In this document: one piece after another, positions 38,548 to 54,408 of the stretch | How the letters are laid out: every line of letters begins with the position of its first letter | How positions within the stretch are numbered: the first letter of the stretch is position 1 | Source of the DNA: Escherichia coli | GTDB lineage: Bacteria; Pseudomonadota; Gammaproteobacteria; Enterobacterales; Enterobacteriaceae | Strand: one strand, 5' to 3' | Length of the DNA stretch: 64,000 nucleotides | NCBI RefSeq assembly: GCF_029227855.1 | Contig: NZ_CP074357.1 | The notes under the pieces: generated by a model | Told to the model about the DNA's origin: nothing | Seen by the model: the letters and a program-made list of their open reading frames with translations, nothing else | Databases searched by the model: none | Made by a program: the position numbers and the translations under genes

Positions 38548-39177
38548 TGAAGCCTCGTCTCAGCGATAACGCTTGAAATAGCCCGCTTTGGTCATCATGA
38601 AATTAGCCATCTGACTGGCGATTTGATTGTATCTTACTCATAGTGCCCTACCTATAGGTTAAAAAGGGGCATTTTCGCTTTATAGCGTGTTCAGCAGCAT
38701 CAATCCTCCCAAGAAAGGCTGGCTTATTAAGCCGGTCCATCATTTTCTGTATATCTCTCATCAATTTTTATATCCGCCCTGGAGTGCACCGTTCAAGCAC
38801 ACCGATTAGGCAGATAGTCACTAGTTAACTCTTTACTAGTGACTAAATTCCATTGATATACGTGACAACGTCACGTCATGAAAGCTTATAAATGCCTATT
38901 TTTCATACAATGGGATTTAATTAGGAGTAAATCCCATAGGCTTACATAAGGATGACAATTAAAAGCGTTAAATATCAACCAGATAGAATGATTACCCCCA
39001 ATTAATGGGCTCATCACATTATTTCACTGGCTGGGGTTATTGCTGGCATATCTGAAAGTGCTAATATGTTAGTCATTAGTAATTAGTAAAGCCTTTACTA
39101 AACGCGTTTCTACGTAAATTCTATAGGTTTTATAGTGTCCTACCTTTGCTCAAATCAAAATGTTCTGACATACCAAA

Positions 39178-40008
39178 ATGGAGTGTAAAATGACTCAAAA
39201 CCAGGGTTCTGAGCCAGTACCGGCGAGCCGGACAGGGCAGCTCATCAGCGCCCGGGATATGGCCATGCAGAAATTCGAAGAAGGGATGCGGTTAATCTCG
39301 GAAGCGTCGGAACTGTGCGGTCTCTCTCTCTTCACCAGCAGAATTATGCAGCCCAACGCATTTGGTCTTCCGTCGTCACTGGATCGCACCATCGAGGAGG
39401 GGCGTAAGGAAATTGACCGTAAAACGTGGAAAAGGCTCTTTGAAGAAACAGGTATGGACCGGTACTGGAACCATAAGCAAAAAGAAGCCTTTAACGAATC
39501 CCTTCGTACGGATCCGCCCGTCGCTTCCCTGGAGATTGTTAAGGGAACATTACAGCATGCACTGGCTAACAGACGAGACACCCTTGCAGAAGGTTTCGTT
39601 GATGTTCTCAACAAGCTTGACCGAAGTTTCAAAAGCAATGCCAGGCAATATACAATGCCAAAAAAGCTTGTTCTTCGGGGGATTTTTCCTGGTGTGAACG
39701 TGCTGAGGTACAACGGTTTCTCGCAGGACAATCACTTTTGTTTACGCGACTTTGAGAATATTGTATGCATCTGTTCTGATACTCCAACACCTGCAACCGG
39801 CGGTGGGCTGAGTATGGTCGACAGGCTGACGGCCATGAGAAATACAGAATTCACAGGCGAGGTCAGTGATGAGAATGGCTGGCGGTGTCGCCTGTTTGAG
39901 AATGGAAACGTTCATATTTGCATCGACAGTATCTCGCTTCTGAATGCTCTGAACGATCTTATCAGCATATATTTTGCAAACCAGCTTCCGGCCGCAGGAA
40001 AAAAATGA
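39178..40008 (+). CDS. hypothetical protein (276 aa)
   Basis: ORF track; stop overlaps start of the downstream coiled-coil gene (ATGATG at 40005). Confidence 0.6.
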   Translation: MECKMTQNQGSEPVPASRTGQLISARDMAMQKFEEGMRLISEASELCGLSLFTSRIMQPNAFGLPSSLDRTIEEGRKEIDRKTWKRLFEETGMDRYWNHKQKEAFNESLRTDPPVASLEIVKGTLQHALANRRDTLAEGFVDVLNKLDRSFKSNARQYTMPKKLVLRGIFPGVNVLRYNGFSQDNHFCLRDFENIVCICSDTPTPATGGGLSMVDRLTAMRNTEFTGEVSDENGWRCRLFENGNVHICIDSISLLNALNDLISIYFANQLPAAGKK

Positions 40009-41210
40009 TGATTGAAAATGATAAAGAAAAAAGCCTGAACGATGCTACCCCGCCAGAGGTGCAGAATGACATCCGCAGCGAATCCACTGAAAAATCAAAG
40101 GAAATGGGTCGTTCAAGGTACTCATCTATCGCGATGATCGATTACTTCAATGCAATCGAACGTCTGTGCAAAGAGAAAGAAATTAACCCGGAAAATATCG
40201 ATCTGAGCTTCAAAGTTCACTGGCTCAGAAACGCTGTTGGCGGCTCGTTTGCAAGGTCACAGGAGATGTTCGCGGAGTACCAGAAGTATGTTAAAGAGGT
40301 TCCTGAAGAGGCCCGTTACCTGGATATACCCGATGAGGTAAAGGTTGCACTCGGCGATATTATCTCGTACATCACCTGGCACTACCGTAGAAGCTATACC
40401 GCAATACAGAATGATAGTGTTAAAAAAGCTGAAGCACGTAGCATGCAGCTGGAGGAGGAGGTAACGCAGCTGTTACAGCGGCTTGAGCAAAGCGCTACCG
40501 ATATGGATGAGCTGAAACTTGAGAATCAGGCACTACAGGGTCGATTAGAGATCCGGGACAGTACCGTCAAGGAGTTAGAAACAAGGCTGAATGTTGCCGA
40601 AGCAGAACTCGAAACCTGCCATCACCAGTTAGATAGCACACGGCATGAATTGAGCCTCGCACAGCAGTCAAATGACTCACTCTCCCAGCAACTGGCTGAA
40701 CGTAAAACAGAGATCGCTGGTCACCTTGAATATCAAAAAAAGCTGAACGAAGAGATCAACACGCAGCGTTCTGATAACGCCGGTCTTTCCAGACAATGCG
40801 ACCAGTTAAGTCAGACTGTGTCAGATACAAAGGCAGAGAGGGACAGGTTTGAACAGGAATTGATTGCTGCACAGAACCTTTGTACTGAGCTGAAAAGTGC
40901 ACTGTCCGGGAAAGAGGGTGACCTGGTGGCGGTGAATGCCGAGCTTACTGAACTCCATAAACTAAACGAGTCGCTGAGCGCCGACCTGAATAAAGTAACT
41001 TTGGTCAGCCAGGGCTATGAAGCGGAAGTGGCTGAACAAAGCAATGAACTCAAAACGCTCCAGGCCAAAGTAATGAAGCTGGAAGCTACCCTGGAGGCGG
41101 AGAAAACAATCTCAGAATCCCTAAAAGGCACCATTGATACATTAACTGGTGCAATGGCAGGGGGAGGTACTGGAAAGTCAAAACAGCCGCGTAGCAGAAA
41201 AACATCATGA
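40005..41210 (+). CDS. coiled-coil protein, KfrA-like architecture
   Basis: ~401 aa from MMIENDKEKS; long heptad-like Q/E/L-rich segment ..LEEEVTQLLQRLEQSATDMDELKLENQALQGRLEIRDSTVKELETRLNVAEAELE..; start uncertain. Confidence 0.55.
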   Translation: MMIENDKEKSLNDATPPEVQNDIRSESTEKSKEMGRSRYSSIAMIDYFNAIERLCKEKEINPENIDLSFKVHWLRNAVGGSFARSQEMFAEYQKYVKEVPEEARYLDIPDEVKVALGDIISYITWHYRRSYTAIQNDSVKKAEARSMQLEEEVTQLLQRLEQSATDMDELKLENQALQGRLEIRDSTVKELETRLNVAEAELETCHHQLDSTRHELSLAQQSNDSLSQQLAERKTEIAGHLEYQKKLNEEINTQRSDNAGLSRQCDQLSQTVSDTKAERDRFEQELIAAQNLCTELKSALSGKEGDLVAVNAELTELHKLNESLSADLNKVTLVSQGYEAEVAEQSNELKTLQAKVMKLEATLEAEKTISESLKGTIDTLTGAMAGGGTGKSKQPRSRKTS

Positions 41211-41273
41211 TAAATGAAGCCAGGTTGATACACTTCTCTGCATCCCCTGGCACATAAGAACTTCTGCGGACAT

Positions 41274-41477
41274 TCAGCCCGTCCGCAGGAGTTTTCGTCC
41301 TTCAGTCAACAAATGCACTACCTTTTTTGAGTCTCCACTTTCCAGAGCAGAAAACACGTTACCGATTCTACCAACAGCTTGTATCTGAGTGATAACCCCA
41401 GTCTTGTAATCATCTAGGATCCCTGACAGGAAAGCGTTCAGTTTTGTCTGTTCGCTTAGCGAAAGCATGTAGGACAT
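41274..41477 (-). CDS. hypothetical small protein (67 aa)
   Basis: ORF track; immediately downstream of the 439-aa gene in the same orientation. Confidence 0.4.
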   Translation of the reverse strand: MSYMLSLSEQTKLNAFLSGILDDYKTGVITQIQAVGRIGNVFSALESGDSKKVVHLLTEGRKLLRTG

Positions 41478-41489
41478 TTTTTCTCCATT

Positions 41490-42809
41490 TTAAGCAGGTG
41501 TGTCAGTTGAAAGAGGTTTGCGTGATTCTGGAAAATGAGGCAGCACCATAGTTTCAGATGCTGTGGTCGCATCCCAGTGCCACCATCCATAAGGCCCATA
41601 TTCACGGTTGTAATAATCTTTTTTGAGTTGCTTTCGGGCCAGATAAGCAGGAGTGGCCATACCAAATACTTCCATCGGGAACGGCTTATCGCTTTTTGTG
41701 TCGAGCAGGTAGAAGTCAGGGAACACCTCACTAATACTCGCATCATAACGCATGGGCTTAACGTACTGCCGGTGCTCTGCATCCAGCTTTTCTGCAACAA
41801 CCGCCTCATAGGAGGAGTCCAGAGGTATCCAGTTCTCGCTAACGTGCATCAGCACAATTTGATGAGCTCTTACAGAAGGGCCTCTGCCGGTTACCGCAGC
41901 TGGTGACGTCAACGCAAAGACAACTATTTTCGCCCCGGATTTCCATGCTGCGTACTCCGATGAAAATCGTTTCTTTACGCTATCCCAATGGACTTCTGAA
42001 TTGAAAAAAATCAGCGGTAGCCCCCCAAAATTCCGCAGGGGTAAAAATTTAAGTGGCTTCTCATGCTTTTCAGCATCGTAGCGAGGTAAAACTGACAGGA
42101 GCATGAGACGTTTATCACTCATCGCCTGTGATGAAAGACGCTGAATTTGCGACTGAGCGACAGGTTGTTTCGGGTCAGGTACACCAATGAATAAATGGTC
42201 ACCTATGCAGGCTCTGCCGGTACGAATTTGTTTAGCGGTTTCAAGCAGACGATACCGTACCAGTGAATCGTTACGTTTCCCTGCCATTTTCGGGTACCAG
42301 ACATTCAGACCAGACTCTGTCCACAAAAGACTAAGCAAGCCCAGGAGGGTCATTGAGGCCTGACCTCCTTCTGGTCGCTGAACATGGGGCAGGGGAGGCA
42401 CTTCTGATTTTTCAGGAGGATCTTTCTCTGTCATACCGATACCGAGCCTTACAGCCATATCACCTTCGGTTGTAATCCGGACCACACCACTCGCATATCC
42501 TTTCAGGCCGGTATGCCGGGCATCAAGGGAGAAGAATACACAGGAAGGATCATGCTCAATGCCCGTGTTAGCGGCTTTGACGAGAATAAAGGCATCACCG
42601 TTCGGTAAAGCACGAACATAAAGTCGCTTTTCTCCTTTTCCACGACATCCGCAGGTGATGACTGATTTTTGACCTGAGGTGTGGTGTGCCTTTTTAAGAG
42701 CCGACTGCCACCCTTTAGCAAACTCATCCTGCGTTTGAAAGTCAGGTGAATACCTTTTGACGTTTGGATCGTCGTCGTAAGCAATCATCACTGCGAATTT
42801 TTGGCTCAT
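41490..42809 (-). CDS. hypothetical protein (439 aa), partner of the Dcm-like methyltransferase
   Basis: ORF with AGGAGA ribosome-binding site 6 nt upstream; no catalytic motif assignable by eye. Confidence 0.65.
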   Translation of the reverse strand: MSQKFAVMIAYDDDPNVKRYSPDFQTQDEFAKGWQSALKKAHHTSGQKSVITCGCRGKGEKRLYVRALPNGDAFILVKAANTGIEHDPSCVFFSLDARHTGLKGYASGVVRITTEGDMAVRLGIGMTEKDPPEKSEVPPLPHVQRPEGGQASMTLLGLLSLLWTESGLNVWYPKMAGKRNDSLVRYRLLETAKQIRTGRACIGDHLFIGVPDPKQPVAQSQIQRLSSQAMSDKRLMLLSVLPRYDAEKHEKPLKFLPLRNFGGLPLIFFNSEVHWDSVKKRFSSEYAAWKSGAKIVVFALTSPAAVTGRGPSVRAHQIVLMHVSENWIPLDSSYEAVVAEKLDAEHRQYVKPMRYDASISEVFPDFYLLDTKSDKPFPMEVFGMATPAYLARKQLKKDYYNREYGPYGWWHWDATTASETMVLPHFPESRKPLSTDTPA

Positions 42810-42831
42810 AGTAGTCTCCTAAACAGGAAGT

Positions 42832-42999
42832 TTAATATCCCAACCAGAGCAACACTTCCTGAGCGTCATACTGTTCCTTTACGCCCATGTCGCTAAAGAA
42901 TTCTTCGAAATCTGTTTCGGGAACGCAATGCCTGGACAGTTCTTGTAATGCTCGTTCTTTAGATACCGTCTCACCTTCAGCTGATTCGAAATACGTCAT
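42832..42999 (-). CDS. hypothetical small acidic protein (55 aa)
   Basis: Hand-translated: MTYFESAEGETVSKERALQELSRHCVPETDFEEFF..; below ORF-track size cutoff; sits between methyltransferase and 439-aa gene. Confidence 0.3.
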   Translation of the reverse strand: MTYFESAEGETVSKERALQELSRHCVPETDFEEFFSDMGVKEQYDAQEVLLWLGY

Positions 43000-43059
43000 G
43001 GTTGACCTCTGACATTATTACAACAATCTTAAGCATTTAAATTGATGAAGGAGCTCAGG

Positions 43060-44529
43060 TCAGCTGACTTCGTCGTAAAACTGCCGCAAGCGCTGGGAGG
43101 CTGCAAATTCAATTCGTGACTTCAGCAGTTTGGCGACGGCCGCAAAGACATCAACGACCACGGAGTTCCCAAACTGTCTGTAAGCCTGTGTATTGGACAC
43201 AGGGATACGGAAAACACTTTCCCCGGGTTTATCGAAGCCCATTAGCCTGCTGCATTCACGTGGCGTTAGCATGCGTGGCCGACGGTCCATGTTGTATGTG
43301 TTATGGAAATCAGTTTCTCCCAGTTCATGAGACCAGCCCCGATCAATAAGAATTTCAGATCCGTCTTTCATATAGCGGCTTGAGAGGGTTCTGGTGACAC
43401 TATTAACATTGGAAGGATCTACTAGTCCAAAACCAAAACCATTGCCTTTTGCCGCATGTTTCTTTGCATAGTTGTATAAGTACTCCCAGAGTTTAGGGGA
43501 GAGGATGTATTTACTATCTACGCTCGGATCCAGTAAATCTGAGAGAGAAGGGCGCTTGTCCGGATAAAAGTCTTTAATGTCTCTCAGAGTAAAACCGTCT
43601 TTCAGACGTAGGTCGCGGCGAAAACCAATAAGGACGATACGTTCACGGTGCTGGGGTCGGAAATGACGGCCATCGATGACTTTAGGATCATCCGCGCCCG
43701 TGCTTTCGCTGTTTGCGACGTCGTAGCCAAGCTCATCGAGCGTTTTCATGATGATGTTAAAGGTATTACCCTTATCGTGACTCTTCAGATTTTTTACGTT
43801 TTCCAGAACAAAAATTGCAGGTTGTTTTGCCCGGATGATCCTGGCCACATCAAAGAAGAGCGTACCCTGAGTGTCGCACTCGAAACCGTGTTTGCGACCC
43901 ATAGAGTTCTTTTTACTGACACCGGCGATGCTGAATGGCTGGCATGGAAATCCCGCAAGAAGAACATCATGATCCGGGATAGAGGCATCGATAAATTTGT
44001 ATGCCTCGTCATCAGTAACCTCGGGCCGGTTGCTAAGAGTGATGTCACGGATGTCTGAATTGAAGCGGTGCTCGTTCTCATCGCAATACCAGTTCGCCCG
44101 GTAAGTACGGCTGGAATAAGTATTCCATTCGCTCGTGAAAAGACATTTACCACCGATGGCATCAAATCCGCTTCGCAGTCCACCTATCCCTGCAAACAGA
44201 TCGATAAAGCTAAAGTGCCTGTCCTCATAATCAGCAGGTCGTGAAGGTATTAAAGTCTGTAGATAGCGTCCATCTGCGATACTCAGCTCACAATGCTCAG
44301 GTATGCATGTAACCTGACGTTTAAGGGATGCACGGGACCAATTACTGCCATTTTCATCATTTAATACCTGAGCCAGATATTTCAGGTCATAAATGGTCGA
44401 AGCTGTTAACAAAGTTTTGTGGATCAGAGATGGTGTTTTATCCACATCATTCAGGTCTGTCTCAAGATCATGAGTGTAACGTTTCATCCAAACTCTCTCA
44501 GGAATAATATCTTTGAGATAGATTAACAC
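43060..44529 (-). CDS. DNA cytosine-5 methyltransferase, Dcm / M.EcoRII family
   Basis: 489 aa; motif [11 protein letters not shown], motif [10 protein letters not shown], motif [17 protein letters not shown]; colinear with E. coli Dcm by eye. Confidence 0.9.
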
Positions 44530-44662
44530 GCTTAATTTGGATTATTTTTTGGTTCAGGTTCTAAATTTATTGTGATTATTCTGCCTTTAAGTTGCAAAAA
44601 GATTGGTTTTAAGCCCGCCCATGAAATAATGACTTGTTAAAATACTGCCTGTAAATAGGCTT

Positions 44663-45217
44663 GTGGATACATGTCTGTACTCAACAAATCAAGGTGAAAT
44701 GATGTTTTTTTTAACAAAGTTACTTTTGCCCATCATGATTGTTGTATTCCCAGTGGCGTCCTGGGGGAACTCAACAACTTTTGAGGCAAAGGTGGTTAAG
44801 ATTGTTGACGGTGACACCATAACTGCGTTGGATGCTCAAAACACAACCATCAAAATACGGATGTATGGTATAGACGCTCCTGAATCTAAACAGGCTTTTG
44901 GCCAAAAAGCAAAACAGGCCTTAACCACAGCTATAGCAACTAAAATCGTTACCGTGATAGACCATGGTACGGATATCTATGGCCGTATGTTAGGTACCAT
45001 CTGGTTAGATGGATATGATATCAATGCCTCTATGGTGGACAGTGGATATGCGTGGGTTTATCGGTTCGAAGATAACGCCATTGTCCCTGGCTATATCAAA
45101 TATGAATCCGCAGCACAAAAGGAGGCAAAAGGGTTATGGGCAGACACCAACCCTGTCCCACCATGGCAGTGGAGACAGGCAAACGAAAAGCCCAGAAAGG
45201 TGAAAGAGAAGAAATAA
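44663..45217 (+). CDS. secreted SNase-like (thermonuclease-family) nuclease
   Basis: Signal-peptide-like N-terminus (probable start MMFFLTKLL at 44699); ..VKIVDGDTITALD.., ..RMYGIDAPE.., ..YGRMLGTIW.. resemble staphylococcal nuclease. Confidence 0.75.
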   Translation: MDTCLYSTNQGEMMFFLTKLLLPIMIVVFPVASWGNSTTFEAKVVKIVDGDTITALDAQNTTIKIRMYGIDAPESKQAFGQKAKQALTTAIATKIVTVIDHGTDIYGRMLGTIWLDGYDINASMVDSGYAWVYRFEDNAIVPGYIKYESAAQKEAKGLWADTNPVPPWQWRQANEKPRKVKEKK

Positions 45218-45219
45218 CC

Positions 45220-46116
45220 ATGATGAAAGAGCCTCATCCGTTACTTCAGTTGGTACTAAACGATTCCGGTCGTCTAACCATGCCTGTTTATTATAGAGAT
45301 CAACAGTATTGCCCGACTTGCCTTACAAAGGTGTTGAAGAGTGAGGATGGAAGTTTGGCGCACCTCGGGGAAATAAATCAAAATACATGTAGACCTTCTA
45401 TTTCAGTAGTTGTGACAAAAGCAATTATTGAAATGTTATGTGACGGGGAAAAAATATATGTAAATCCAATACGACACCGAGGCCGGGTGCTGGCACCCTC
45501 AGTAATTTTTTCTCCCGACACTCACACTTTCAAACCGTTTATAAATACAGACTATCAGCCTGTGGGAGCAAACTGGAAAAGTGAAAAGGGATATAAACTC
45601 GGTCTGTTTTATCTCAAAGATCGAGCCAACTCTATCAATAAAGAGGAATTTGATTTCATTGCCGTTATAGACCCTGAGGCAATGCAGAAAGAATTTATTT
45701 CGGCCTGGTCTGAGGTTGATGAAAAAAATCCATTGGAAACGCTGAAGCAGATCTTACGATCTAAAAACAACTCTTCTTTATGGGTAAAATGGCCTGGCAA
45801 AATTGAGCATGCGCAAAAAGGAAATTACAACGAAAATTACTGGTTCGATTATCAATCTGATAATCAGGAAGTGAACTGTACGGTCTCTGTTGTAGGTATC
45901 GAAGGTAACAGTTCCGGTGAGACAATTTATAGATTGCAAACTTTGCTAAAGCGTAAGCTCAATGAATATCAACTGGTTCGGTCTTTAGGGACTATTATGC
46001 TTCTTGATAATACCGGGAATATGATTCCATCAAACCATCCTTATTTTGAAGTCATCTCAAAAGCATGTATAAATGGAGTGCGTGACTTTGTTCGTCAAAA
46101 CCCGTGGGTAGTCTGA
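45220..46116 (+). CDS. hypothetical protein (298 aa)
   Basis: ATGATG start 3 nt after nuclease stop (ORF track begins earlier at 45136). Confidence 0.55.
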   Translation: MMKEPHPLLQLVLNDSGRLTMPVYYRDQQYCPTCLTKVLKSEDGSLAHLGEINQNTCRPSISVVVTKAIIEMLCDGEKIYVNPIRHRGRVLAPSVIFSPDTHTFKPFINTDYQPVGANWKSEKGYKLGLFYLKDRANSINKEEFDFIAVIDPEAMQKEFISAWSEVDEKNPLETLKQILRSKNNSSLWVKWPGKIEHAQKGNYNENYWFDYQSDNQEVNCTVSVVGIEGNSSGETIYRLQTLLKRKLNEYQLVRSLGTIMLLDNTGNMIPSNHPYFEVISKACINGVRDFVRQNPWVV

Positions 46117-46163
46117 CGGTCAACTATAAAGCATAATATAATTAGTAATAACAAGGAACAGAC

Positions 46164-46571
46164 ATGAATGAAAACTCAGTAATCTTAATAAGTTTATTTT
46201 GGTTTTTTTTGGGATCGAGTGTTGTAGCTGGTTTTATGGATGCATCATTATATTGCTGGATTTTTGCAGCCATAAGCGCATTGTTTCTTCTTTCGGTGAT
46301 ACAAACACCAAAGGAGTTAACGGTATCTATTAGTCATATGACAAGCAAAACGCTGATCTCAAAGACAGATGATGGATACACATTTAGCATTTCACCTTAC
46401 GGAGACGGGTACCGCTTATCAGTCTCGCCTGAAAATCGTCACAATGGTACCCAAAGCTTTGACGGCTGGTTCCCACGTTTTTTTTCCGAACCACAGTATG
46501 CCAAATCATCTTTAACTAAATTTCTCGGTGAGTCCTTAGTATGGGAAGAAGATTCAAGTAATGCTCTATGA
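46164..46571 (+). CDS. hypothetical membrane protein (135 aa)
   Basis: Two N-terminal hydrophobic segments. Confidence 0.5.
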   Translation: MNENSVILISLFWFFLGSSVVAGFMDASLYCWIFAAISALFLLSVIQTPKELTVSISHMTSKTLISKTDDGYTFSISPYGDGYRLSVSPENRHNGTQSFDGWFPRFFSEPQYAKSSLTKFLGESLVWEEDSSNAL

Positions 46572-46616
46572 GATTACTTATTATAAATTTTTCTATTAAT
46601 CTCCATGGAGTGATAT

Positions 46617-46871
46617 ATGAATTTGGCCTATTTTTTATTTTTGTCTATAACTGTTATGCTTACGAGCTTTATTATTAAATCACTTGTCGTATTGGTAAAG
46701 TTCAAATTACTTCGTGATGAACGTCTCGAATATACCAGCAATAAAAATATTGATGAGATGTACGATTTAATGAATGCGAAGGAAGAAATCCTCATAAGGC
46801 ATCATAAGCAGATGTTGGCATTGCATCTTTCACTATTAATATTCGTTCTATTTATTGCTTACATTTACTAA
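46617..46871 (+). CDS. hypothetical small membrane protein (84 aa)
   Basis: Hydrophobic N- and C-terminal segments. Confidence 0.45.
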   Translation: MNLAYFLFLSITVMLTSFIIKSLVVLVKFKLLRDERLEYTSNKNIDEMYDLMNAKEEILIRHHKQMLALHLSLLIFVLFIAYIY

Positions 46872-47196
46872 AAATAATTTTATTCAACATTTCAACAAAG
46901 GGTTTTCAATGGAAAGCTTCGAAACTGAACAAATGATTCAATATGCTTTCTACATAAATATCGTAATAACGACTGGTTTGGCATGGTTTTGCTTGCGGTC
47001 AGGATTGCATTACAATTTTTTCAGAAAAGCAGAGAGTGCCAGAACAAAAGGGCTGAGTAGTACCTCTACTGAACACGGTCCAGCAATAGTGAGACTAAAG
47101 AAGCTACAAGCATTAGTAGATTTTATTAGTAACTGTGCTTTTCTAATCCTTTCAATTGGCACAGCTTATATTTTGTATGTTTGGAGCCACAGTTAA
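46855..47196 (+). CDS. hypothetical small membrane protein (probable start at MESFETEQ)
   Basis: Two hydrophobic segments; start uncertain. Confidence 0.4.
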   Translation: MLTFTKNNFIQHFNKGFSMESFETEQMIQYAFYINIVITTGLAWFCLRSGLHYNFFRKAESARTKGLSSTSTEHGPAIVRLKKLQALVDFISNCAFLILSIGTAYILYVWSHS

Positions 47197-47232
47197 CTCA
47201 TACGAGGTAACTTCGGCAGGTAACAACTTCTA

Positions 47233-47463
47233 ATGCAGGACTTTAATAACTCTAAGGGATTCTACATGAAAAAAGACGATCTAATTACGCGTTGTAAATT
47301 ACTTAAAGGCGAACGCGATGAGTCTATCTTTACCATATTAATTGGGATAGTAGTAAAGCTGGGGCTGGTAGGCCTGGCATTCTATCTGTTGCTTGGTTCC
47401 ACGATTGATTGGTCAAGCTGGAAAACTTATGCCGCCATGTTGATCTTGGGAGCATTTCTCTAA
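47233..47463 (+). CDS. hypothetical small membrane protein (76 aa)
   Basis: C-terminal hydrophobic segments. Confidence 0.4.
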   Translation: MQDFNNSKGFYMKKDDLITRCKLLKGERDESIFTILIGIVVKLGLVGLAFYLLLGSTIDWSSWKTYAAMLILGAFL

Positions 47464-47799
47464 AATCTTGAACCTTTTTTCACTCATTACAAGCCATGAC
47501 CTAGTGCGTAGATCATACGATCTTTAAACCTTATGTCATTGATTTATAAGTACATATAACAAAGATTATGTTAAATACTGTATGTATGTACAGCATCAAC
47601 AGTTGCCCCCCTCATATTGAGGTAATTGCTACATTCATACCACTATTCTTCTTATAGTATCGACATCCTGAATTATTGCACCCTACTGCTTTGTCTTTAG
47701 CTGTTCCGAATTAAAATTCATTGCTCAATTTGGATCACATGACGATCAGCGTATTCCTTTGCTTTATCAAAGTTAAGTTTTTAAAACATAAGATATGTA

Positions 47800-48261
47800 A
47801 TGACAAATTCTCAATCTGATTTTCCTTTGAACGATCAAAATTTTCAGGCAGATTTGCTGAAAATCAAAAAGGTTTTCGCCGACCTTATAACGCAGGCATC
47901 AGATGGTAAGATACCCATAAGGTCTTCTCATGTACACGGCTTACACCATTTCGAGGAGCTCTACATCCGGGCAAGAGCAGGCATGTGTTCGGTCCTGGGA
48001 TATCCGGTCATGGTTGTTTCAACTATCTCAGTTAAAGAGCCCGGCACAGGCATTTTTAGAGCGCTTCTTGCAGAATTGAAATGTATTGCAGATGAACAAA
48101 ATTACATTTTGAAAATTGAAAATGTACTGCCTCCCCTATTCCGCAAATACCTTATTCAAGAAGGTTTTGTTTTCCCAGGTGAACCTTGGATGTGTGGTTC
48201 CGGCTATTGGTTTAAGAACCCACAAGTACTTCATGAAAATATTGAGTTATTATCTGTTTAA
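47800..48261 (+). CDS. hypothetical protein, possibly GNAT-like acetyltransferase
   Basis: 153 aa; ..VKEPGTGIFRALL.. fits the K/R-x-x-G-x-G/A acetyl-CoA motif loosely. Confidence 0.45.
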   Translation: MTNSQSDFPLNDQNFQADLLKIKKVFADLITQASDGKIPIRSSHVHGLHHFEELYIRARAGMCSVLGYPVMVVSTISVKEPGTGIFRALLAELKCIADEQNYILKIENVLPPLFRKYLIQEGFVFPGEPWMCGSGYWFKNPQVLHENIELLSV

Positions 48262-48290
48262 GTCGATCTAACAATTTCACTGGAGCTAAC

Positions 48291-48698
48291 ATGTCCCCGG
48301 AATTGGTATCAGACATTGCAAGAGTGGCGCATGAAAAGCTACTTTCAATTTTAACGGAGTGCGGCATAGAGAAGACGGCAGGCACTTGCCTTTTTGCAAG
48401 CTATCTTGTGTGTTATTTAGCAAAAACTAAAGGTCTAGATGCTGTTGTCCGTGGGGGTAACGGTGCAGATGATGGCGGTATATTTATAGAGTGTGGTGGC
48501 TTTGGCCATTATTGGTGTGAGTTGAATTTCGAAGAAGTGCAATATTATATTGACATCACTTCCGAACAGTTTGGGTTTCATCCATACATAGTGAAACTCG
48601 CCAACGATATAACAGGATGGCCTCGATATATTCCTGGTGATCAGGAAACGGTCGATAGTCATTTAGAACAATTATTACGCGACGGCTATACAGAATAG
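48291..48698 (+). CDS. hypothetical protein with Cys/His/Asp pattern
   Basis: 135 aa; ..GTCLFASY.., ..GHYWCE.., ..YIDIT.. could form a thiol-hydrolase triad. Confidence 0.45.
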   Translation: MSPELVSDIARVAHEKLLSILTECGIEKTAGTCLFASYLVCYLAKTKGLDAVVRGGNGADDGGIFIECGGFGHYWCELNFEEVQYYIDITSEQFGFHPYIVKLANDITGWPRYIPGDQETVDSHLEQLLRDGYTE

Positions 48699-48748
48699 GC
48701 TGCGTATACCCTATCGCAGCCTTTCAGGCTCTTAACCCTTGTGACCTG

Positions 48749-49276
48749 TTAACGGAACCACTCAGGATGACGCTGCCGATCAACTTTGATAACCTGCGAA
48801 TTAAATTCAACGACATCCGCTGGAGTAAGCATTAATTCATCAGGATTTACAATAAATGGTCTTAAAACCACTTCGCCACCGTCTTCTTTTGCACCGTAGA
48901 TATTAATAAGAAAGTGCAGTCGTTGATTTCCTTCAGCATTGCGTTGCCATTCTCTAAAAGTCAAAGTTTGTTTAATATAGTTTGTTAAAAGAAATGCGAA
49001 TTCAGATTCTTCCGTTTGTGAGATACCGATTTTGTTAGACATTTTTTTTAGTATCTTTCCGAGCATGGACACACAGGCATCTAGACTTAACGATGTTGAA
49101 ATTTTGGTCGTATTAAAATCCTCCTGCGAAAGTGAAATCATCCATGTATTATCTTTATGATAGTCGGTAATATAAATAAAATGAGATGTAAAAGGCGTTG
49201 AGTGATTGAACTCTCCTAAGTTCCATCCATACTGACTCACTGTATTTGAGCTAAGTTCTTTGTCGGTAATGTTCAT
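48749..49276 (-). CDS. hypothetical protein (175 aa)
   Basis: ORF track; convergent with the 47800-48698 pair. Confidence 0.5.
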   Translation of the reverse strand: MNITDKELSSNTVSQYGWNLGEFNHSTPFTSHFIYITDYHKDNTWMISLSQEDFNTTKISTSLSLDACVSMLGKILKKMSNKIGISQTEESEFAFLLTNYIKQTLTFREWQRNAEGNQRLHFLINIYGAKEDGGEVVLRPFIVNPDELMLTPADVVEFNSQVIKVDRQRHPEWFR

Positions 49277-49442
49277 AATTCATACCTTTCGATAAAGTCT
49301 GTAATGATAATTAGCTATCTCAAAGGACCAGAACAACTCTTGAAATAACCACACTCGAAGAATTTATCATATTGAACACCCCTACCTAATAACCTTGCCG
49401 ACTTAATAAATCACAATAGCCCTCCCCTGACATTTTAAAATG

Positions 49443-49829
49443 CTACTTGAATTTTTGATAGCTTATGGTTGTTTTATGTTCTTTGTGATACGCATATGTC
49501 ATCTTCTCTTTCCAGTACCAATCTTGTAGATCCTGCAAGTCTAGCCCATTTTTCTCACGTATGCTTTCGTGTAATTCGCTAAGCGCGAGTTTATCATTAG
49601 GTTTATAAATGGCTAATTTTTCTTCAAATAAATCCAGCCAACGTTTCCCCATCTTACGACGCAAAACAAACACCATCGTGATAAATGTAATGAAATGCAC
49701 AGCAATTAGTTCCAACTTATGCGATTGCTGACCAGATAAAATTACTATTGTAACAACAGGGATGGCCGTATATAAAGCAATCAAAGCGACCATAAGTTGG
49801 TATGGTTTTTCCCGTATTACCATGTTCAT
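49443..49829 (-). CDS. hypothetical membrane protein (128 aa)
   Basis: Two predicted TM helices; start lies 40 bp from the Tn1721 IR. Confidence 0.45.
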   Translation of the reverse strand: MNMVIREKPYQLMVALIALYTAIPVVTIVILSGQQSHKLELIAVHFITFITMVFVLRRKMGKRWLDLFEEKLAIYKPNDKLALSELHESIREKNGLDLQDLQDWYWKEKMTYAYHKEHKTTISYQKFK

Positions 49830-49902
49830 GGGTAAACCAGAGGACGCTACTGCTTGCCAAAATCTTAAAGGGGAGCCCGCAGAATTCGGAAAAAATCGTA
49901 CG

Positions 49903-51700
49903 CTAAGGTTTTCCGGGCATCCGTAAGGGCCGAAACTTCCCGTCTTCCAGTCTGCGGCTCTGCCGCCAGACGTAATCGCCGGTTAGGTTGATGTGCTCCC
50001 AGCCCAGCGGCGACAGGAATTGCAGCAGCTCGCCGTCCACCGGCTTGCCGGCCTCGACCAACCCCTGGGTGGCGCGTTCCAGGTACACCGTGTTCCACAG
50101 CACGATAGCCGCCGTCACCAGGTTGAGGCCGCTGGCCCGGTAGCGCTGCTGCTCGAAGCTCCGATCCCTGATTTCCCCAAGGCGGTTGAAGAACACCGCC
50201 CTGGCCAGCGAGTTGCGCGCCTCACCTTTGTTCAGGCCGGCATGCACGCGGCGGCGCAGTTCAACACTTTGCAGCCAGTCCAGGATGAACAGCGTGCGCT
50301 CGATCCGGCCCAGCTCGCGCAGGGCCACGGCCAGTCCGTTCTGGCGCGGGTAGCTGCCGAGCTTGCGCAGCATCAGCGAGGCGGTGACGGTGCCCTGCTT
50401 GATCGAGCTGGCCAGGCGCAGGATGTCGTCCCAGTGGGCACGCACGTGCTTGATGTTCAGGGTGCCGCCGATCAGCGGGCGCAACGTCGGGTAGGCTTGC
50501 ACGCCCTGCGGCACGTACAGCTTGGTTTCGCCGAGGTCGCGGATGCGCGGCGCGAAGCGGAAGCCTAGCAGGTGCATCAGGGCAAAGACGTGATCGGTGA
50601 AGCCGGCCGTGTCGGTGTAGTGCTCCTCGATCCGCAGGTCGGACTCGTGGTACAGCAGGCCGTCGAGCACATAGGTGGAATCGCGGACGCCGACATTCAC
50701 CACGCGGGTGCTGAACGGCGCGTACTGGTCGGAGATATGGGTATAGAACAGCCGTCCCGGCTCGCTACCGTACTTCGGGTTGACGTGCCCGGTGCTCTCG
50801 CCCCGGCCACCCGCGCGGAAGCGCTGGCCATCGGAGGATGAGGTCGTGCCGTCGCCCCAGTGGGCGGCAAAGGCGTGGCGATACTGGTGGTTGACCAGCT
50901 CGGCCAAGGCCGCCGAATAGGTTTCGTCGCGGATGTGCCAGGCTTGCAGCCAGGACAGCTTGGCGTAGGTCAGGCCGGGGCTCGACTCGGCCATCTTGGT
51001 CAGCCCGAGGTTGATCGCATCACCGAGGATTGCGGACAGCAGCAACGTCCTGTCTTTGGCCTCGGCCCCGTCCTTCAAGTGGGTGAAGTGGCGGCTGAAG
51101 CCCGTCCAGTCGTCCACGTCCATCAGCAGTTCGGTGATCTTGATGCGCGGCAGTAACTGGCTGGTTTGGTCGATCAGCGCCTGCGCCCGATCCGGCACCG
51201 CCGCATCCAGCGGGGTGATTTTCAGCCCTGACTCGGTGAGGATGGCATCGGGCAGCTCGTTGTCCTTGGCCAGGCGGGTGACGGTGGCCAACTGCTCGTC
51301 CAGCAGCTGCAAACGCTCTTCCAGGTACTGGTCGCTGTTCGGGTTGATCGCCAGGGGCAGGGCCTGCTCGCGCTTGAGTGCGGCGAACTTCTCGGCCGGC
51401 AGCAGGTAGTCGTCGAAGTCGCGGAACTGCCGCGAGCCCTTGACCCAGATGTCGCCGGAGCGCAGGGCGTTCTTCAGCTCGGACAGGGCGCAGATTTCGT
51501 AGAATTTCCGGTCGAGGCCTTCCGGGGTGATCACCAGCGGCTTCCAGCGCGGCTTGATGAAGGCCGTGGGTGCATCGGCCGGCACCTTGCGCAGGTTGTC
51601 GGCGTTCATCTCACGCAGGGTCTGCACGGCTGCCAGCACGCCTTGCGCGGCCGGCCCGTGCTGTTCCCCAACTTTTCGCTCGGCGAAGAGTATGAACATG
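49903..51700 (-). pseudogene. tnpA: Tn1721 tnpA' (3' portion of transposase gene)
   Basis: 606-aa ORF ending ..[11 protein letters not shown]; 5' boundary approximate. Confidence 0.8.
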
Positions 51701-52050
51701 CGCCGCCGGCGACGAATCGCCAAATCTCACCGTATCTCCCGAGCGGACGATTTCGCACCGGTCTGCCCGTCGAAGGGCTTGCGATCGAACGGGGCGACCT
51801 TTTCTATGCATGTCCGCGAGCCAGCGTCTTTTATGGCACGGCGCTCGACGCCGACCTTCGGACGCGCGGCGTAAGCACGCTTGTCATGGCCGGGATAAGC
51901 ACCACCGGCGTTGTTCTTTCAAGCGTCGCCTGGGCTAGTGATGCGGACTACGACGTGCGTTTGGTCCAGGACTGCTGCTACGACCCGGATCGGGATGCCC
52001 ACGAAGCTCTGTTGCGTTCCGGGTTCGGCGGACGTGTACAGGTCGTGTAA
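51643..52050 (+). pseudogene. isochorismatase-family hydrolase, C-terminal fragment
   Basis: ..STLVMAGISTTGVVLSSVAWASDADYDVRLVQDCCYDPD..; N-terminus missing. Confidence 0.4.
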
Positions 52051-52187
52051 TTTTCGGGCCTCGCATGATCGCGGCCATAGCCGCAGGTGGATTGGTGCGA
52101 GGCAGGGCCAGTCCAAGTCAGGGTGCGGTCATCGCGGCGCCTGCAACTCTCAAAAACCCATCGCCGTAGCGGAGGTCTTGTAATCGC

Positions 52188-53072
52188 ATGTCATTACGCA
52201 CGCCCGATTTATTGTTCACAGCGATAGCACCTGCCATTTGGGGCAGCACCTACATTGTCACCACCCAATACCTGCCGAACTTCTCACCGATGACGGTCGC
52301 GATGCTGCGGGCGTTGCCGGCGGGTTTATTGCTCGTGATGATCGTCCGACAGATTCCAACGGGAATCTGGTGGATGCGCATCTTCATCCTCGGCGCACTT
52401 AATATTTCGCTATTCTGGAGCTTGTTGTTTATTTCGGTCTACCGCCTGCCGGGCGGGGTCGCGGCGACGGTAGGCGCTGTGCAGCCGCTGATGGTCGTGT
52501 TCATCTCTGCCGCTCTGCTAGGTAGCCCGATACGATTGATGGCGGTCCTGGGGGCTATTTGCGGAACTGCGGGCGTGGCGCTGTTGGTGTTGACACCAAA
52601 CGCAGCGCTAGATCCTGTCGGCGTCGCAGCGGGCCTGGCGGGGGCGGTTTCCATGGCGTTCGGAACCGTGCTGACCCGCAAGTGGCAACCTCCCGTGCCT
52701 CTGCTCACCTTTACCGCCTGGCAACTGGCGGCCGGAGGACTTCTGCTCGTTCCAGTAGCTTTAGTGTTTGATCCGCCAATCCCGATGCCTACAGGAACCA
52801 ATGTTCTCGGCCTGGCGTGGCTCGGCCTGATCGGAGCGGGTTTAACCTACTTCCTTTGGTTCCGGGGGATCTCGCGACTCGAACCTACAGTTGTTTCCTT
52901 ACTGGGCTTTCTCAGCCCGGGGACCGCCGTGTTGCTAGGATGGTTGTTCTTGGATCAGACGCTGAGTGCGCTTCAAATCATCGGCGTCCTGCTCGTGATC
53001 GGGAGTATCTGGCTGGGCCAACGTTCCAACCGCACTCCTAGGGCGCGTATAGCTTGCCGGAAGTCGCCTTGA
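52188..53072 (+). CDS. pecM: EamA-family transporter PecM
   Basis: 294-aa polytopic membrane protein convergent with tet(A) as in Tn1721. Confidence 0.8.
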   Translation: MSLRTPDLLFTAIAPAIWGSTYIVTTQYLPNFSPMTVAMLRALPAGLLLVMIVRQIPTGIWWMRIFILGALNISLFWSLLFISVYRLPGGVAATVGAVQPLMVVFISAALLGSPIRLMAVLGAICGTAGVALLVLTPNAALDPVGVAAGLAGAVSMAFGTVLTRKWQPPVPLLTFTAWQLAAGGLLLVPVALVFDPPIPMPTGTNVLGLAWLGLIGAGLTYFLWFRGISRLEPTVVSLLGFLSPGTAVLLGWLFLDQTLSALQIIGVLLVIGSIWLGQRSNRTPRARIACRKSP

Positions 53073-53103
53073 CCCGCATGGCATAGGCCTATCGTTTCCA
53101 CGA

Positions 53104-54303
53104 TCAGCGATCGGCTCGTTGCCCTGCGCCGCTCCAAAGCCCGCGACGCAGCGCCGGCAGGCAGAGCAAGTAGAGGGCAGCGCCTGCAATCCATGCCCAC
53201 CCGTTCCACGTTGTTATAGAAGCCGCATAGATCGCCGTGAAGAGGAGGGGTCCGACGATCGAGGTCAGGCTGGTGAGCGCCGCCAGTGAGCCTTGCAGCT
53301 GCCCCTGACGTTCCTCATCCACCTGCCTGGACAACATTGCTTGCAGCGCCGGCATTCCGATGCCACCCGAAGCAAGCAGGACCATGATCGGGAACGCCAT
53401 CCATCCCCGTGTCGCGAAGGCAAGCAGGATGTAGCCTGTGCCGTCGGCAATCATTCCGAGCATGAGTGCCCGCCTTTCGCCGAGCCGGGCGGCTACAGGG
53501 CCGGTGATCATTGCCTGGGCGAGTGAATGCAGAATGCCAAATGCGGCAAGCGAAATGCCGATCGTGGTCGCGTCCCAGTGAAAGCGATCCTCGCCGAAAA
53601 TGACCCAAAGCGCGGCCGGCACCTGTCCGACAAGTTGCATGATGAAGAAGACCGCCATCAGGGCGGCGACGACGGTCATGCCCCGGGCCCACCGGAACGA
53701 AGCGAGCGGGTTGAGAGCCTCCCGGCGTAACGGCCGGCGTTCGCCTTTGTGCGACTCCGGCAAAAGGAAACAGCCCGTCAGGAAATTGAGGCCGTTCAAG
53801 GCTGCCGCGGCGAAGAACGGAGCGTGGGGGGAGAAACCGCCCATCAGCCCACCGAGCACAGGTCCCGCGACCATCCCGAACCCGAAACAGGCGCTCATGA
53901 AGCCGAAGTGCCGCGCGCGCTCATCGCCATCAGTGATATCGGCAATATAAGCGCCGGCTACCGCCCCAGTCGCCCCGGTGATGCCGGCCACGATCCGCCC
54001 GATATAGAGAACCCAAAGGAAAGGCGCCGTCGCCATGATGGCGTAGTCGACAGCAGCGCCGGCCAGCGAGACGAGCAAGACCGGCCGCCGCCCGAAACGA
54101 TCCGACAGCGCGCCCAGCACAGGTGCGCAGGCAAATTGCATCAACGCATACAGCGCCAGCAGAATGCCATAGTGGGCGGTGACGTCGTTCGAGTGAACCA
54201 GATCGCGCAGGAGGCCCGGCAGCACCGGCATAATCAGGCCGATGCCGACAGCGTCGAGCGCGACAGTGCTCAGAATTACGATCAGGGGTCTGTTGGGTTT
54301 CAC
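53104..54303 (-). CDS. tet(A): tetracycline efflux pump Tet(A)
   Basis: 399 aa from (V)KPNRPLIVILSTVALDAVGIGLIMPVLPGLLRDL.. ending ..RRGLWSGAGQRADR. Confidence 0.9.
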   Translation of the reverse strand: MKPNRPLIVILSTVALDAVGIGLIMPVLPGLLRDLVHSNDVTAHYGILLALYALMQFACAPVLGALSDRFGRRPVLLVSLAGAAVDYAIMATAPFLWVLYIGRIVAGITGATGAVAGAYIADITDGDERARHFGFMSACFGFGMVAGPVLGGLMGGFSPHAPFFAAAALNGLNFLTGCFLLPESHKGERRPLRREALNPLASFRWARGMTVVAALMAVFFIMQLVGQVPAALWVIFGEDRFHWDATTIGISLAAFGILHSLAQAMITGPVAARLGERRALMLGMIADGTGYILLAFATRGWMAFPIMVLLASGGIGMPALQAMLSRQVDEERQGQLQGSLAALTSLTSIVGPLLFTAIYAASITTWNGWAWIAGAALYLLCLPALRRGLWSGAGQRADR

Positions 54304-54408
54304 GTCTGGCCTCCGGACCAGCCTCCGCTGGTCCGATTGAACGCGCGGATTCTTTATCACTGATAAGTTGGTGGACATATTATGTTTATCAGTGATAAAG
54401 TGTCAAGC

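What the first reader, a model, noticed from the sequence alone, without database searches (positions are those of the whole stretch)
44663..47463. Secreted SNase-like nuclease co-transcribed with a 298-aa unknown and four small membrane proteins
The nuclease has a signal-peptide-like N-terminus and staphylococcal-nuclease-like motifs. The next gene starts 3 nt after its stop, followed by four short ORFs each with predicted transmembrane segments, all on the same strand with small gaps. A periplasmic or exported nuclease coupled to membrane components could be an exclusion or DNA-degradation function, a nuclease/immunity arrangement, or plasmid-entry related. None of this is assignable from sequence alone.
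Basis: inference. Interest (0 to 1): 0.5.

Follow-up and report, generated by a model that had tools for sequence, protein, structure and literature searches.

The report
IncHI plasmid exported nuclease operon
This is backbone DNA of a common IncHI2 resistance plasmid: an ordinary exported staphylococcal-type nuclease gene that is always paired with an uncharacterised 298-aa protein, while the small membrane-protein ORFs after it are variable, dispensable passengers rather than parts of one machine.

Summary
The ORFs exist as described. The stretch is IncHI2 plasmid backbone, found in more than 1,100 sequenced plasmids. The nuclease (44699-45217) is a true SNase-family enzyme. Its catalytic and Ca2+-binding residues are intact, and its N-terminal export signal is conserved in every relative examined. 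The 298-aa gene starts 2 nt after the nuclease stop. This pairing (gap -8 to +17 nt) holds in about ten lineages, down to 20% identity of the 298-aa protein, and all eight lineages examined have an extended -10 promoter motif 57-70 nt upstream. The two-gene operon is therefore real and conserved.

The 298-aa protein belongs to a tiny orphan family (25 clusters among 1.84 billion). It has no Pfam, PDB-sequence or convincing fold match, and its function is unknown.

The "four small membrane proteins" are not conserved partners. The first is a chimera made by a 530-bp deletion. The set differs between IncHI2 lineages and is absent, replaced or on the opposite strand in others. The last ORF is interrupted by IS elements in natural plasmids.

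SNase genes without this partner sit on at least 5,000 plasmids. Verdict: an ordinary plasmid periplasmic nuclease plus an orphan partner; the six-gene system idea is not supported.

The parts
43060..44529 (-). Orphan Dcm-type DNA cytosine-5 methyltransferase, transcribed divergently from the nuclease. RefSeq places the start at 44487. It is part of the conserved block DUF4942 - ~400-aa hypothetical - DUF1173 - small ORF - dcm | nuclease - P298.
   Evidence: NCBIfam PRK10458 matches at 846 bits, above its cut-off. The same divergent arrangement is seen in IncHI1, IncHI2 and metagenomic relatives.
44635..44643 (+). Predicted extended -10 promoter element (TGTTAAAAT) for the nuclease operon.
   Evidence: The motif TGnTAnAAT lies 57-70 nt upstream of the nuclease ATG in all 8 lineages compared, although the rest of the spacer cannot be aligned. 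Chance expectation is about 0.02 per 250 nt. It is the only + strand match between 44300 and 48000. This is a prediction, not a mapped transcription start.
44699..45217 (+). Exported SNase-family (thermonuclease) nuclease, 171-172 aa. Residues 1 to about 22 form a Sec-type signal peptide. The ribosome-binding site AAGGTGA lies at 44689-44695.
   Evidence: Pfam SNase E 5e-24. Matches PDB SNase structures at E 1e-10. Catalytic and Ca2+ residues are conserved. Signal-like hydrophobic N-terminus, conserved in function but divergent in sequence across lineages. RefSeq annotates it as a thermonuclease family protein.
45220..46116 (+). P298: an orphan 298-aa protein with no signal peptide or transmembrane segment. 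It has an N-terminal CxxC...H...C zinc-ribbon-like motif, 6 Cys and pI 7.0, and is translationally coupled to the nuclease.
46164..46571 (+). 135-aa chimeric ORF. Residues 1-56 are the first two transmembrane helices of a 104-aa membrane ORF. These are fused, after a 530-bp deletion at 46331/46332, to a complete 77-aa soluble ORF whose own ATG is at 46338.
   Evidence: pK29/R478-type plasmids carry 530 extra bp here, encoding the rest of the 104-aa ORF and an 85-aa membrane ORF. The 77-aa protein stands alone with 55% identity in a distant lineage, L010. There is no microhomology at the junction.
46617..46871 (+). 84-aa ORF with a predicted two-helix membrane hairpin. It is found only in IncHI2 and is usually not annotated by RefSeq.
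   Evidence: Hydropathy. tblastn finds it only in IncHI2 plasmids at 99% identity or more, with no diverged homologues. It is identical in both IncHI2 lineages, so coding selection cannot be tested.
46909..47196 (+). 95-aa ORF with a predicted two-helix membrane hairpin (listed as 113 aa from TTG 46855).
   Evidence: Hydropathy. A 35%-identity homologue with the same architecture lies downstream of the nuclease pair in a divergent IncHI lineage, L008, and in 219 plasmid records.
47266..47463 (+). 65-aa ORF (76 aa from ATG 47233) with one strong hydrophobic helix. It is dispensable.
   Evidence: Hydropathy and a better ribosome-binding site at 47266. Only 84% aa identity between the two IncHI2 lineages, pN/pS about 0.6. 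Interrupted by IS903B at 47378-47386 and by IS10/ISVsa5 at 47366-47374 in natural plasmids.

Best explanation
Shown:
- The locus is conserved IncHI (HI1/HI2) conjugative-plasmid backbone.
- Its functional unit is a two-gene operon. This is a Sec-exported, catalytically competent SNase-family nuclease gene translationally coupled to an orphan protein (P298) that has no export signal.
- The operon is probably driven by its own extended -10 promoter and is divergent from an orphan Dcm methyltransferase.
- The small ORFs downstream are lineage-specific, rearranged and dispensable cargo. They may be read through from the operon but are not part of it.

Inferred mechanism:
- The pre-nuclease crosses the inner membrane by Sec, loses its signal peptide and folds with Ca2+ in the periplasm.
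- There it non-specifically cuts DNA or RNA that reaches the envelope, such as free or foreign DNA. This would benefit the plasmid by limiting entry of rival DNA or by digesting extracellular DNA.
- P298 is presumed to stay in the cytoplasm and to be made in step with the nuclease. It most likely acts on the nuclease's production or safety, for example by holding or silencing the precursor before export.
- This last step is the weakest. It rests only on conserved gene coupling.
For: Plasmid identity:
- 1,143 plasmid records match, mostly IncHI2A/MOBH.

Nuclease:
- Pfam SNase and PDB alignments with all catalytic residues.
- Signal peptides are conserved in function but not in sequence, and the mature protein has no Cys.

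Pairing:
- SNase is followed by a P298-family gene, with a gap of -8 to +17 nt, in the window, L003, L004, L005, L008, L010, L011, L017, L019 and L020.
- This holds while P298 identity falls to 20% and nuclease identity to 46%. In L019 it holds without the dcm/DUF1173 neighbours.

Promoter:
- TGnTAnAAT lies 57-70 nt upstream in 8 of 8 lineages, against about 0.02 expected by chance.

P298:
- It has no signal peptide or transmembrane segment, and it has 6 Cys with a CxxC motif. These features fit a cytoplasmic location.

Small ORFs not conserved:
-.

Precedent:
- An element-encoded, envelope-located SNase-type nuclease that degrades plasmid DNA in transit is YokF (bioRxiv 10.1101/2025.10.26.684598).
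Against: - No experiment or paper on this gene pair was found.
- No export, activity or transcript data exist, so the biological role of the nuclease is a guess.
- SNase homologues occur on at least 5,000 plasmids. On IncC and Klebsiella IncFIB plasmids they have no P298 nearby, so P298 is not needed for a plasmid SNase to be tolerated.
- Distant P298-like proteins (25% identity or less) stand alone in an IncT plasmid, where no SNase was found in 150 of its 156 kb, and next to parAB in a Klebsiella plasmid.
- P298 is neutral in charge and larger than known nuclease inhibitors.
- An IS3-family element sits between the promoter/ribosome-binding site and the nuclease ATG in two natural plasmids. 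Operon expression is therefore dispensable for plasmid persistence.
Confidence: 0.5

Rival explanations
1. P298 has its own function unrelated to the nuclease, for example a DNA- or protein-binding backbone factor of MOBH plasmids. It merely shares an operon with the nuclease, and the nuclease works alone as on other plasmids.
For: - Stand-alone P298-like genes occur in an IncT plasmid and in a Klebsiella MOBH plasmid; in the latter the gene sits directly after parA-parB.
- SNase occurs alone on IncC and IncFIB plasmids.
- The two proteins are predicted to sit in different compartments.
Against: - Immediate adjacency or overlap with SNase persists through divergence to 20% identity and through changes in the neighbouring genes.
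- That is unusual for functionally unrelated genes on mosaic plasmids.
Confidence: 0.28
2. One reading: a six-gene system in which the exported nuclease works with P298 and four small membrane proteins as an exclusion, DNA-degradation or entry device.
For: - The genes share one strand with short gaps and no predicted terminator between 45217 and 47463.
- All four small ORFs have hydrophobic segments.
- The 95-aa ORF has a 35% homologue downstream of the pair in another IncHI lineage.
Against: - The first ORF is a deletion chimera.
- R478-type plasmids have a different set of six small ORFs.
- The L010, L011, L017, L019, pHCM1 and Leclercia lineages lack them.
- The 84-aa ORF has no diverged homologue and is mostly unannotated.
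- IS insertions split the last ORF in natural plasmids.
- No hits in PADLOC, NCBIfam or Pfam.
Confidence: 0.06
3. The nuclease serves plasmid maintenance or DNA processing inside the cell, like the SNase-like ParB of the RK2/RP4 parCBA multimer-resolution operon, rather than acting in the periplasm.
For: - RK2/RP4 ParB is a plasmid-borne Ca2+-dependent nuclease (Grohmann 1997 and Johnson 1999, seen only as titles in the reference list of PMC3089641); that it is an SNase homologue is from my own knowledge.
- A P298-like gene follows parAB in one Klebsiella plasmid.
Against: - No resolvase or parC-like gene adjoins the pair in any lineage; the neighbours are dcm and variable cargo.
- A cleavable-looking signal peptide is conserved in all lineages.
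- IS disruption of the operon's expression signals is tolerated.
Confidence: 0.08

Closest known systems
Staphylococcal nuclease / thermonuclease family (Pfam PF00565; S. aureus Nuc)
   Same: - Full-length SNase domain (E 5e-24).
- About 30% identity to mature S. aureus nuclease.
- D21, R35, D40, E43, Y85, R87 and Y113 conserved.
- Secreted via an N-terminal signal.
   Different: - Encoded on a Gram-negative conjugative plasmid, so export would end in the periplasm.
- Substitutions T41A, K84I and Y115F.
- A basic C-terminal tail.
- Always followed by the P298 gene in this clade.
RK2/RP4 ParB, a Ca2+-dependent nuclease of the parCBA operon
   Same: A plasmid-backbone nuclease in Gram-negative bacteria. 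That ParB is an SNase homologue is from my own knowledge; the two papers' titles, as cited, name only a Ca2+-dependent nuclease.
   Different: The operon partners differ. There is no ParA resolvase or ParC here; instead there is an orphan 298-aa protein and a divergent dcm.
YokF of the B. subtilis SPbeta prophage (bioRxiv 10.1101/2025.10.26.684598)
   Same: An SNase-domain nuclease encoded by a mobile element, with a signal peptide. It is located at the envelope, where it degrades plasmid DNA in transit.
   Different: YokF is Gram-positive and membrane-anchored, carries a fused C-terminal 'TNase modulator' domain, and acts on nanotube-mediated exchange. Here any modulator would be a separate protein without an export signal, and no activity is known.
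Nuclease-inhibitor pairs (barnase-barstar, Anabaena NucA-NuiA, colicin DNase-Im)
   Same: An exported or secreted nuclease gene next to a gene for a protein lacking an export signal, with tight coupling and a faster-evolving partner (nuclease 74% vs P298 52%; 47% vs 20%).
   Different: - These comparators are taken from my own knowledge.
- They are small dedicated inhibitors of other nuclease folds.
- P298 is 298 aa, neutral in charge, and occurs without SNase in some plasmids, while SNase occurs widely without it.
- No binding was tested.
Phospholipase-D-family periplasmic Nuc of IncN pKM101 and similar plasmids
   Same: Functional analogue: a non-specific nuclease with a signal peptide in the backbone of a conjugative plasmid (my own knowledge). 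The IncT plasmid that has a lone P298-like gene carries a PLD-family gene near its relaxase.
   Different: Unrelated fold and chemistry (EDTA-resistant HKD enzyme versus Ca2+-dependent SNase).

Membership tests
SNase / thermonuclease (PF00565) | Significant match to the SNase OB-fold domain over its full length | tested here: met
   Pfam E 5.3e-24 over model positions 1-107 of 107. phmmer matches 282 PDB SNase chains, best E 1.3e-10.
SNase / thermonuclease (PF00565) | Ca2+ ligands D21 and D40 (T41 acts through its backbone) and catalytic R35, E43 and R87 | tested here: met
   All are conserved in the window protein and in nine relatives. T41 is Ala, but the ligand is the backbone carbonyl.
SNase / thermonuclease (PF00565) | Ca2+-dependent DNase/RNase activity | not testable with these tools
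   Needs an enzyme assay.
Sec-exported periplasmic protein | N-terminal signal peptide: a positive n-region, a hydrophobic h-region and small residues at -3/-1 | tested here: met
   K7 followed by LLLPIMIVVFPV, then VAS/SWG (Kyte-Doolittle 2.27). Homologues have VFA|A, VNA|A and VLA|G sites. No SignalP-type tool was available, so the cleavage site is not fixed.
RK2/RP4 par (parCBA) multimer-resolution operon | Nuclease gene flanked by a parA resolvase and parC in one operon | tested here: not met
   The neighbours are dcm (divergent) and P298. No resolvase adjoins the pair in any lineage.
Nuclease-immunity/inhibitor pair | Obligate co-occurrence of the nuclease and its protector | tested here: not met
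   SNase occurs without P298 on IncC and Klebsiella IncFIB plasmids. A P298-like gene occurs on an IncT plasmid with no SNase in the 150 of 156 kb scanned. Within the paired clade, co-occurrence is complete.
Nuclease-immunity/inhibitor pair | Direct binding and inhibition of the nuclease by the partner | not testable with these tools
   Only monomer structure prediction without coordinates was available. Needs co-expression or pull-down.
Known anti-phage defence systems (PADLOC) | Match of the components to defence-system models | tested here: not met
   Only the SNase domain hits a generic SNc+LTD model (E 3e-11). P298 and all the small ORFs have no hit.
Any described protein family, for P298 | Sequence or fold similarity to a characterised family | tested here: not met
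Conserved multi-gene system including the small membrane ORFs | Conservation of the small ORFs with the nuclease across lineages | tested here: not met
   They are rearranged between IncHI2 lineages, absent in IncHI1/pHCM1, Leclercia, L010, L011, L017 and L019, and hit by IS elements.

The most novel reading that the evidence does not exclude
The SNase-P298 pair is a previously unrecognised two-component plasmid module. In it, an orphan zinc-ribbon protein lacking an export signal specifically controls, inhibits or chaperones an exported SNase. P298 would then be the first protein partner or inhibitor described for the SNase fold. The module would act as a periplasmic 'degrade incoming DNA' barrier that IncHI plasmids use against rival mobile DNA.
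Probability: 0.12. Interest if true: 0.6.

Novelty: new member of a known kind. Interest (0 to 1): 0.3.

Why it matters
IncHI1 and IncHI2 plasmids are major carriers of multidrug, colistin and heavy-metal resistance in Salmonella, E. coli and Enterobacter. This operon is in their conserved backbone, yet no paper on it was found. If the exported nuclease limits entry of other DNA or digests extracellular DNA, it would bear on plasmid competition, transformation and biofilm behaviour of these hosts. The strictly conserved orphan partner is a tractable lead for a new SNase accessory factor. As it stands, the nuclease is one of thousands of plasmid SNase genes, and the membrane-protein "system" is not real, so the finding is largely ordinary.

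Tried and rejected
P298 family and fold searches, all without a match to any characterised family:
- Pfam, NCBIfam, PADLOC and PHROGs on P298 and the small ORFs.
- A PDB sequence-profile search with the P298 alignment.
- Foldseek against AFDB50 returned only the protein's own relatives. That list includes a 473-aa UniProt entry, H9THC4, that fuses the nuclease and P298. The two genes lie in different frames, so I take this entry to be a frameshift artefact.
- A PD-(D/E)xK nuclease reading of the central alpha/beta domain was rejected, because no acidic residues are conserved there across the extended family.
- A DNA-mimic inhibitor idea was rejected, because P298 has pI 7.0.

Other tests:
- dN/dS between the two IncHI2 lineages was uninformative, with only 0-4 differences per gene apart from the last ORF.
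- The sigma-70 and terminator scan gave counts no higher than in shuffled sequence.
- Rfam found no RNA family between 44 and 48 kb.
- The region after 47463 folds no better than shuffles.
- Seven full-text literature searches found nothing on the function of this gene pair. One of them, for 'EcnA' (the NCBIfam name of the nearest curated nuclease family), returned only plant papers.
- A linker-fused co-fold of nuclease and P298 was considered and dropped. The tool returns no coordinates or PAE, so an interface could not be judged.
Full report
**What is there**

Window 44.4-47.7 kb matches 1,143 plasmid records by megablast. Nearly all are large conjugative IncHI2A/MOBH plasmids of E. coli, Salmonella, Enterobacter and Klebsiella, for example pSTM6-275 at 100% identity. 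Window 39136-55322 is colinear with pSTM6-275; upstream lies a resistance region rich in IS26. The finding therefore sits in conserved IncHI2 backbone.

**The nuclease**

- The ORF 44663-45217 carries a full SNase domain (Pfam PF00565, E 5e-24).
- It aligns with S. aureus nuclease structures at E about 1e-10.
- D21, R35, D40, E43, Y85 and R87 are all conserved. T41 is Ala, K84 is Ile and Y115 is Phe.
- The realistic start is ATG 44699/44702, behind an AAGGTGA ribosome-binding site.
- The N-terminus (MMFFLTKLLLPIMIVVFPVASWG) is a Sec-type signal by hydropathy.
- Nine other SNases (seven paired with P298, two not), down to 41% identity, keep a signal peptide of different sequence, with VFA|A, VNA|A or VLA|G sites.
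- The mature part has no cysteine.

Export to the periplasm is thus well supported by sequence, but it has not been shown experimentally.

**The nuclease-P298 pair is the conserved unit**

The 298-aa gene starts 2 nt after the nuclease stop. The same order, with a gap of -8 to +17 nt, was found in these lineages:

| Lineage | Locus |
|---|---|
| R478/pK29-type IncHI2 | L003 |
| Divergent Leclercia IncHI2 (86% nt) | L004 |
| IncHI1 pHCM1 | L005 |
| Citrobacter lineage | L008 |
| Metagenomic contigs | L010, L011, L017, L019, L020 |

- P298 identity falls to 20% in L017 and L019, and nuclease identity to 46%.
- L019 keeps the pair but lacks the usual dcm and DUF1173 neighbours.
- P298 evolves faster than the nuclease (52% vs 74% between IncHI1 and IncHI2; 20% vs 47% in L017).
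- The dcm-nuclease spacers cannot be aligned between lineages. Even so, all eight examined have TGnTAnAAT, an extended -10 motif, 57-70 nt upstream of the nuclease ATG. About 0.02 would be expected by chance per spacer.
- In the window this motif is at 44635-44643. It is the only such motif on the + strand between 44.3 and 48 kb.

I read this as a dedicated promoter for a two-gene operon. That is a prediction.

**What P298 is**

- It has no signal peptide or transmembrane segment, six cysteines, a CxxC...H...C motif near the N-terminus and pI 7.0.
- Pfam, NCBIfam, PADLOC, PHROGs and a PDB profile search give nothing.
- An exhaustive profile search of 1.84 billion cluster representatives finds only 25 proteins. 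The word-indexed search finds 34.
- Those I could place are from enterobacterial plasmids, or from contigs with the same dcm/DUF1173/SNase context.
- An AF2 model reached pLDDT 80.5 once remote relatives were added to the alignment.
- It predicts an N-terminal beta-hairpin region, a central alpha/beta domain, and a C-terminal four-stranded meander packed against a long helix.
- Foldseek against AFDB50 finds only uncharacterised relatives.

The biochemical function is therefore unknown.

**Limits of the linkage**

- SNase homologues occur on at least 5,000 of 72,556 plasmids.
- On IncC plasmids the SNase gene is followed by an HU gene. On Klebsiella IncFIB plasmids it lies next to DUF1173 and is followed by an H-NS gene. 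No P298 remnant is present in either.
- Conversely, distant P298-like proteins (25% identity or less, hhalign probability 97-98%) stand alone. One is in an IncT plasmid, where tblastn finds no SNase in 150 of its 156 kb. Another follows parAB in a Klebsiella MOBH plasmid.
- The IncT versions lack the N-terminal CxxC region.

So the pairing defines one clade and is not an absolute dependence. This weakens a strict toxin-immunity reading.

**The small ORFs**

- Hydropathy confirms hydrophobic helices in all four, but they are not a conserved set.
- Compared with R478/pK29-type plasmids, the window lacks 530 bp at 46331/46332.
- That deletion removes an 85-aa membrane ORF and the C-terminal half of a 104-aa membrane ORF. 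It fuses the first 56 residues of the 104-aa ORF, in frame, to a 77-aa soluble ORF.
- The 77-aa protein exists on its own at 55% identity in the distant lineage L010, so the unfused state is ancestral.
- About 674 records carry the deleted form and about 455 the undeleted form. Both versions persist widely.
- The 84-aa ORF has no diverged homologue and is usually not annotated.
- The 95-aa ORF does have 35%-identity homologues in a related IncHI lineage.
- The last ORF differs by 16% at the protein level between the IncHI2 lineages, with pN/pS about 0.6.
- It is split by IS903B at 47378-47386 and by IS10 at 47366-47374 in natural plasmids.
- In other lineages the pair is followed by soluble ORFs (L010), an opposite-strand gene (L011, L017), other genes (L019) or IS elements (pHCM1, Leclercia).
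- No terminator was detected, so read-through is possible.

Functional coupling of these ORFs to the nuclease is not supported.

**Dispensability of the operon itself**

In two Klebsiella IncHI2 plasmids an IS3-family element sits at 44697-44700. This separates the nuclease ATG from its ribosome-binding site and predicted promoter. Expression of the operon is therefore not needed for the plasmid to persist.

**Mechanism**

Shown by sequence:
- an intact SNase with a conserved export signal;
- a conserved two-gene arrangement;
- a conserved promoter-like motif.

Inferred:
- The enzyme acts in the periplasm as a Ca2+-dependent non-specific nuclease on nucleic acid that reaches the envelope.
- P298, which has no export signal, is tied to its production or safety.

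The nearest precedents are these:
- the RK2/RP4 ParB nuclease (papers cited; that it is SNase-like is from my own knowledge);
- the PLD-type periplasmic Nuc of IncN plasmids (my own knowledge);
- the SNase-type YokF of the SPbeta prophage, which degrades plasmid DNA at the membrane.

No paper on the IncHI genes was found.

**Verdict**

The nuclease is ordinary. The pairing with an orphan protein is real, conserved and, as far as my searches show, undescribed, but it is of modest interest. The proposed coupling to four membrane proteins is not supported.

Noticed in passing
window 46331/46332 (L003 5933-6462): There is a clean 530-bp deletion, with no microhomology at the junction, relative to R478/pK29-type IncHI2 plasmids. 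It separates two widespread IncHI2 lineages (about 674 vs 455 records) and creates the chimeric 135-aa ORF.
   Followed up: yes
window 39178-44529 and loci L004, L005, L008, L011, L017, L020: A conserved backbone block lies upstream of the nuclease: DUF4942 protein, a ~400-aa coiled-coil-like protein, then on the opposite strand a small ORF, DUF1173 (439 aa), a 55-aa ORF and an orphan Dcm methyltransferase. The DUF1173 protein has a weak PADLOC hit (PDC-S68, E 8e-5). This may be an anti-restriction or defence-related island.
   Followed up: partly
AFDB/UniProt H9THC4; P0033 and P0034: Public entries of 473, 193 and 191 aa join SNase sequence to P298 sequence. In the window the two genes are in different frames, so these are probably frameshift or assembly artefacts rather than natural fusions.
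   Followed up: partly
window 47800-48261 and 48291-48698 (+), 48749-49276 and 49443-49829 (-): These are further hypothetical backbone ORFs with no family match. The 135-aa one (48291-48698) is 93% identical in a lineage whose P298 is only 52% identical (L008). That makes it much more conserved than its neighbours.
   Followed up: no
window 25609-25678; 630-702 and 30960-31035: Rfam matches RNA-OUT (IS10 antisense RNA, 98.8 bits) and two attI/AAC_AAD leader elements of class 1 integrons.
   Followed up: no
window 2346-3165, 6719-7500, 24675-25494, 29250-30069, 32850-33670, 56908-57727, 58713-59532: Seven IS26-sized segments of about 820 bp at 99.6-100% identity show that the backbone is flanked by an IS26-mosaic resistance region. 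In this window the region replaces the pco/sil copper-silver island found in pSTM6-275.
   Followed up: no
window 49869-51419 and 55357-56907: A 1.55-kb segment of the Tn3-family transposase region appears to be present twice in the same orientation. Both stretches map to the same part of pSTM6-275 (L001 17470-19020).
   Followed up: no
L027 (NZ_CP110525.1), equivalent to window 44697-44700: An IS3-family element is inserted between the ribosome-binding site and the ATG of the nuclease gene in two Klebsiella IncHI2 plasmids. This probably silences or rewires the operon.
   Followed up: partly
L021 45726-46361 (IncT plasmid NZ_OL908907.1): The IncT plasmid that carries a lone P298-like gene has a phospholipase-D-family gene near its MobH relaxase and no SNase in the 150 of 156 kb that were scanned. 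The PLD-family product may be a Nuc-like nuclease, which would be a possible functional substitute.
   Followed up: no
L008 7255-7868 and window 46617-47196: The small ORFs downstream of the pair in two IncHI lineages share an architecture even where sequence similarity is low or absent. Each has an N-terminal hydrophobic helix, a charged loop of about 35-40 residues and a C-terminal hydrophobic helix. They may form a family of small hairpin membrane proteins of unknown role.
   Followed up: partly
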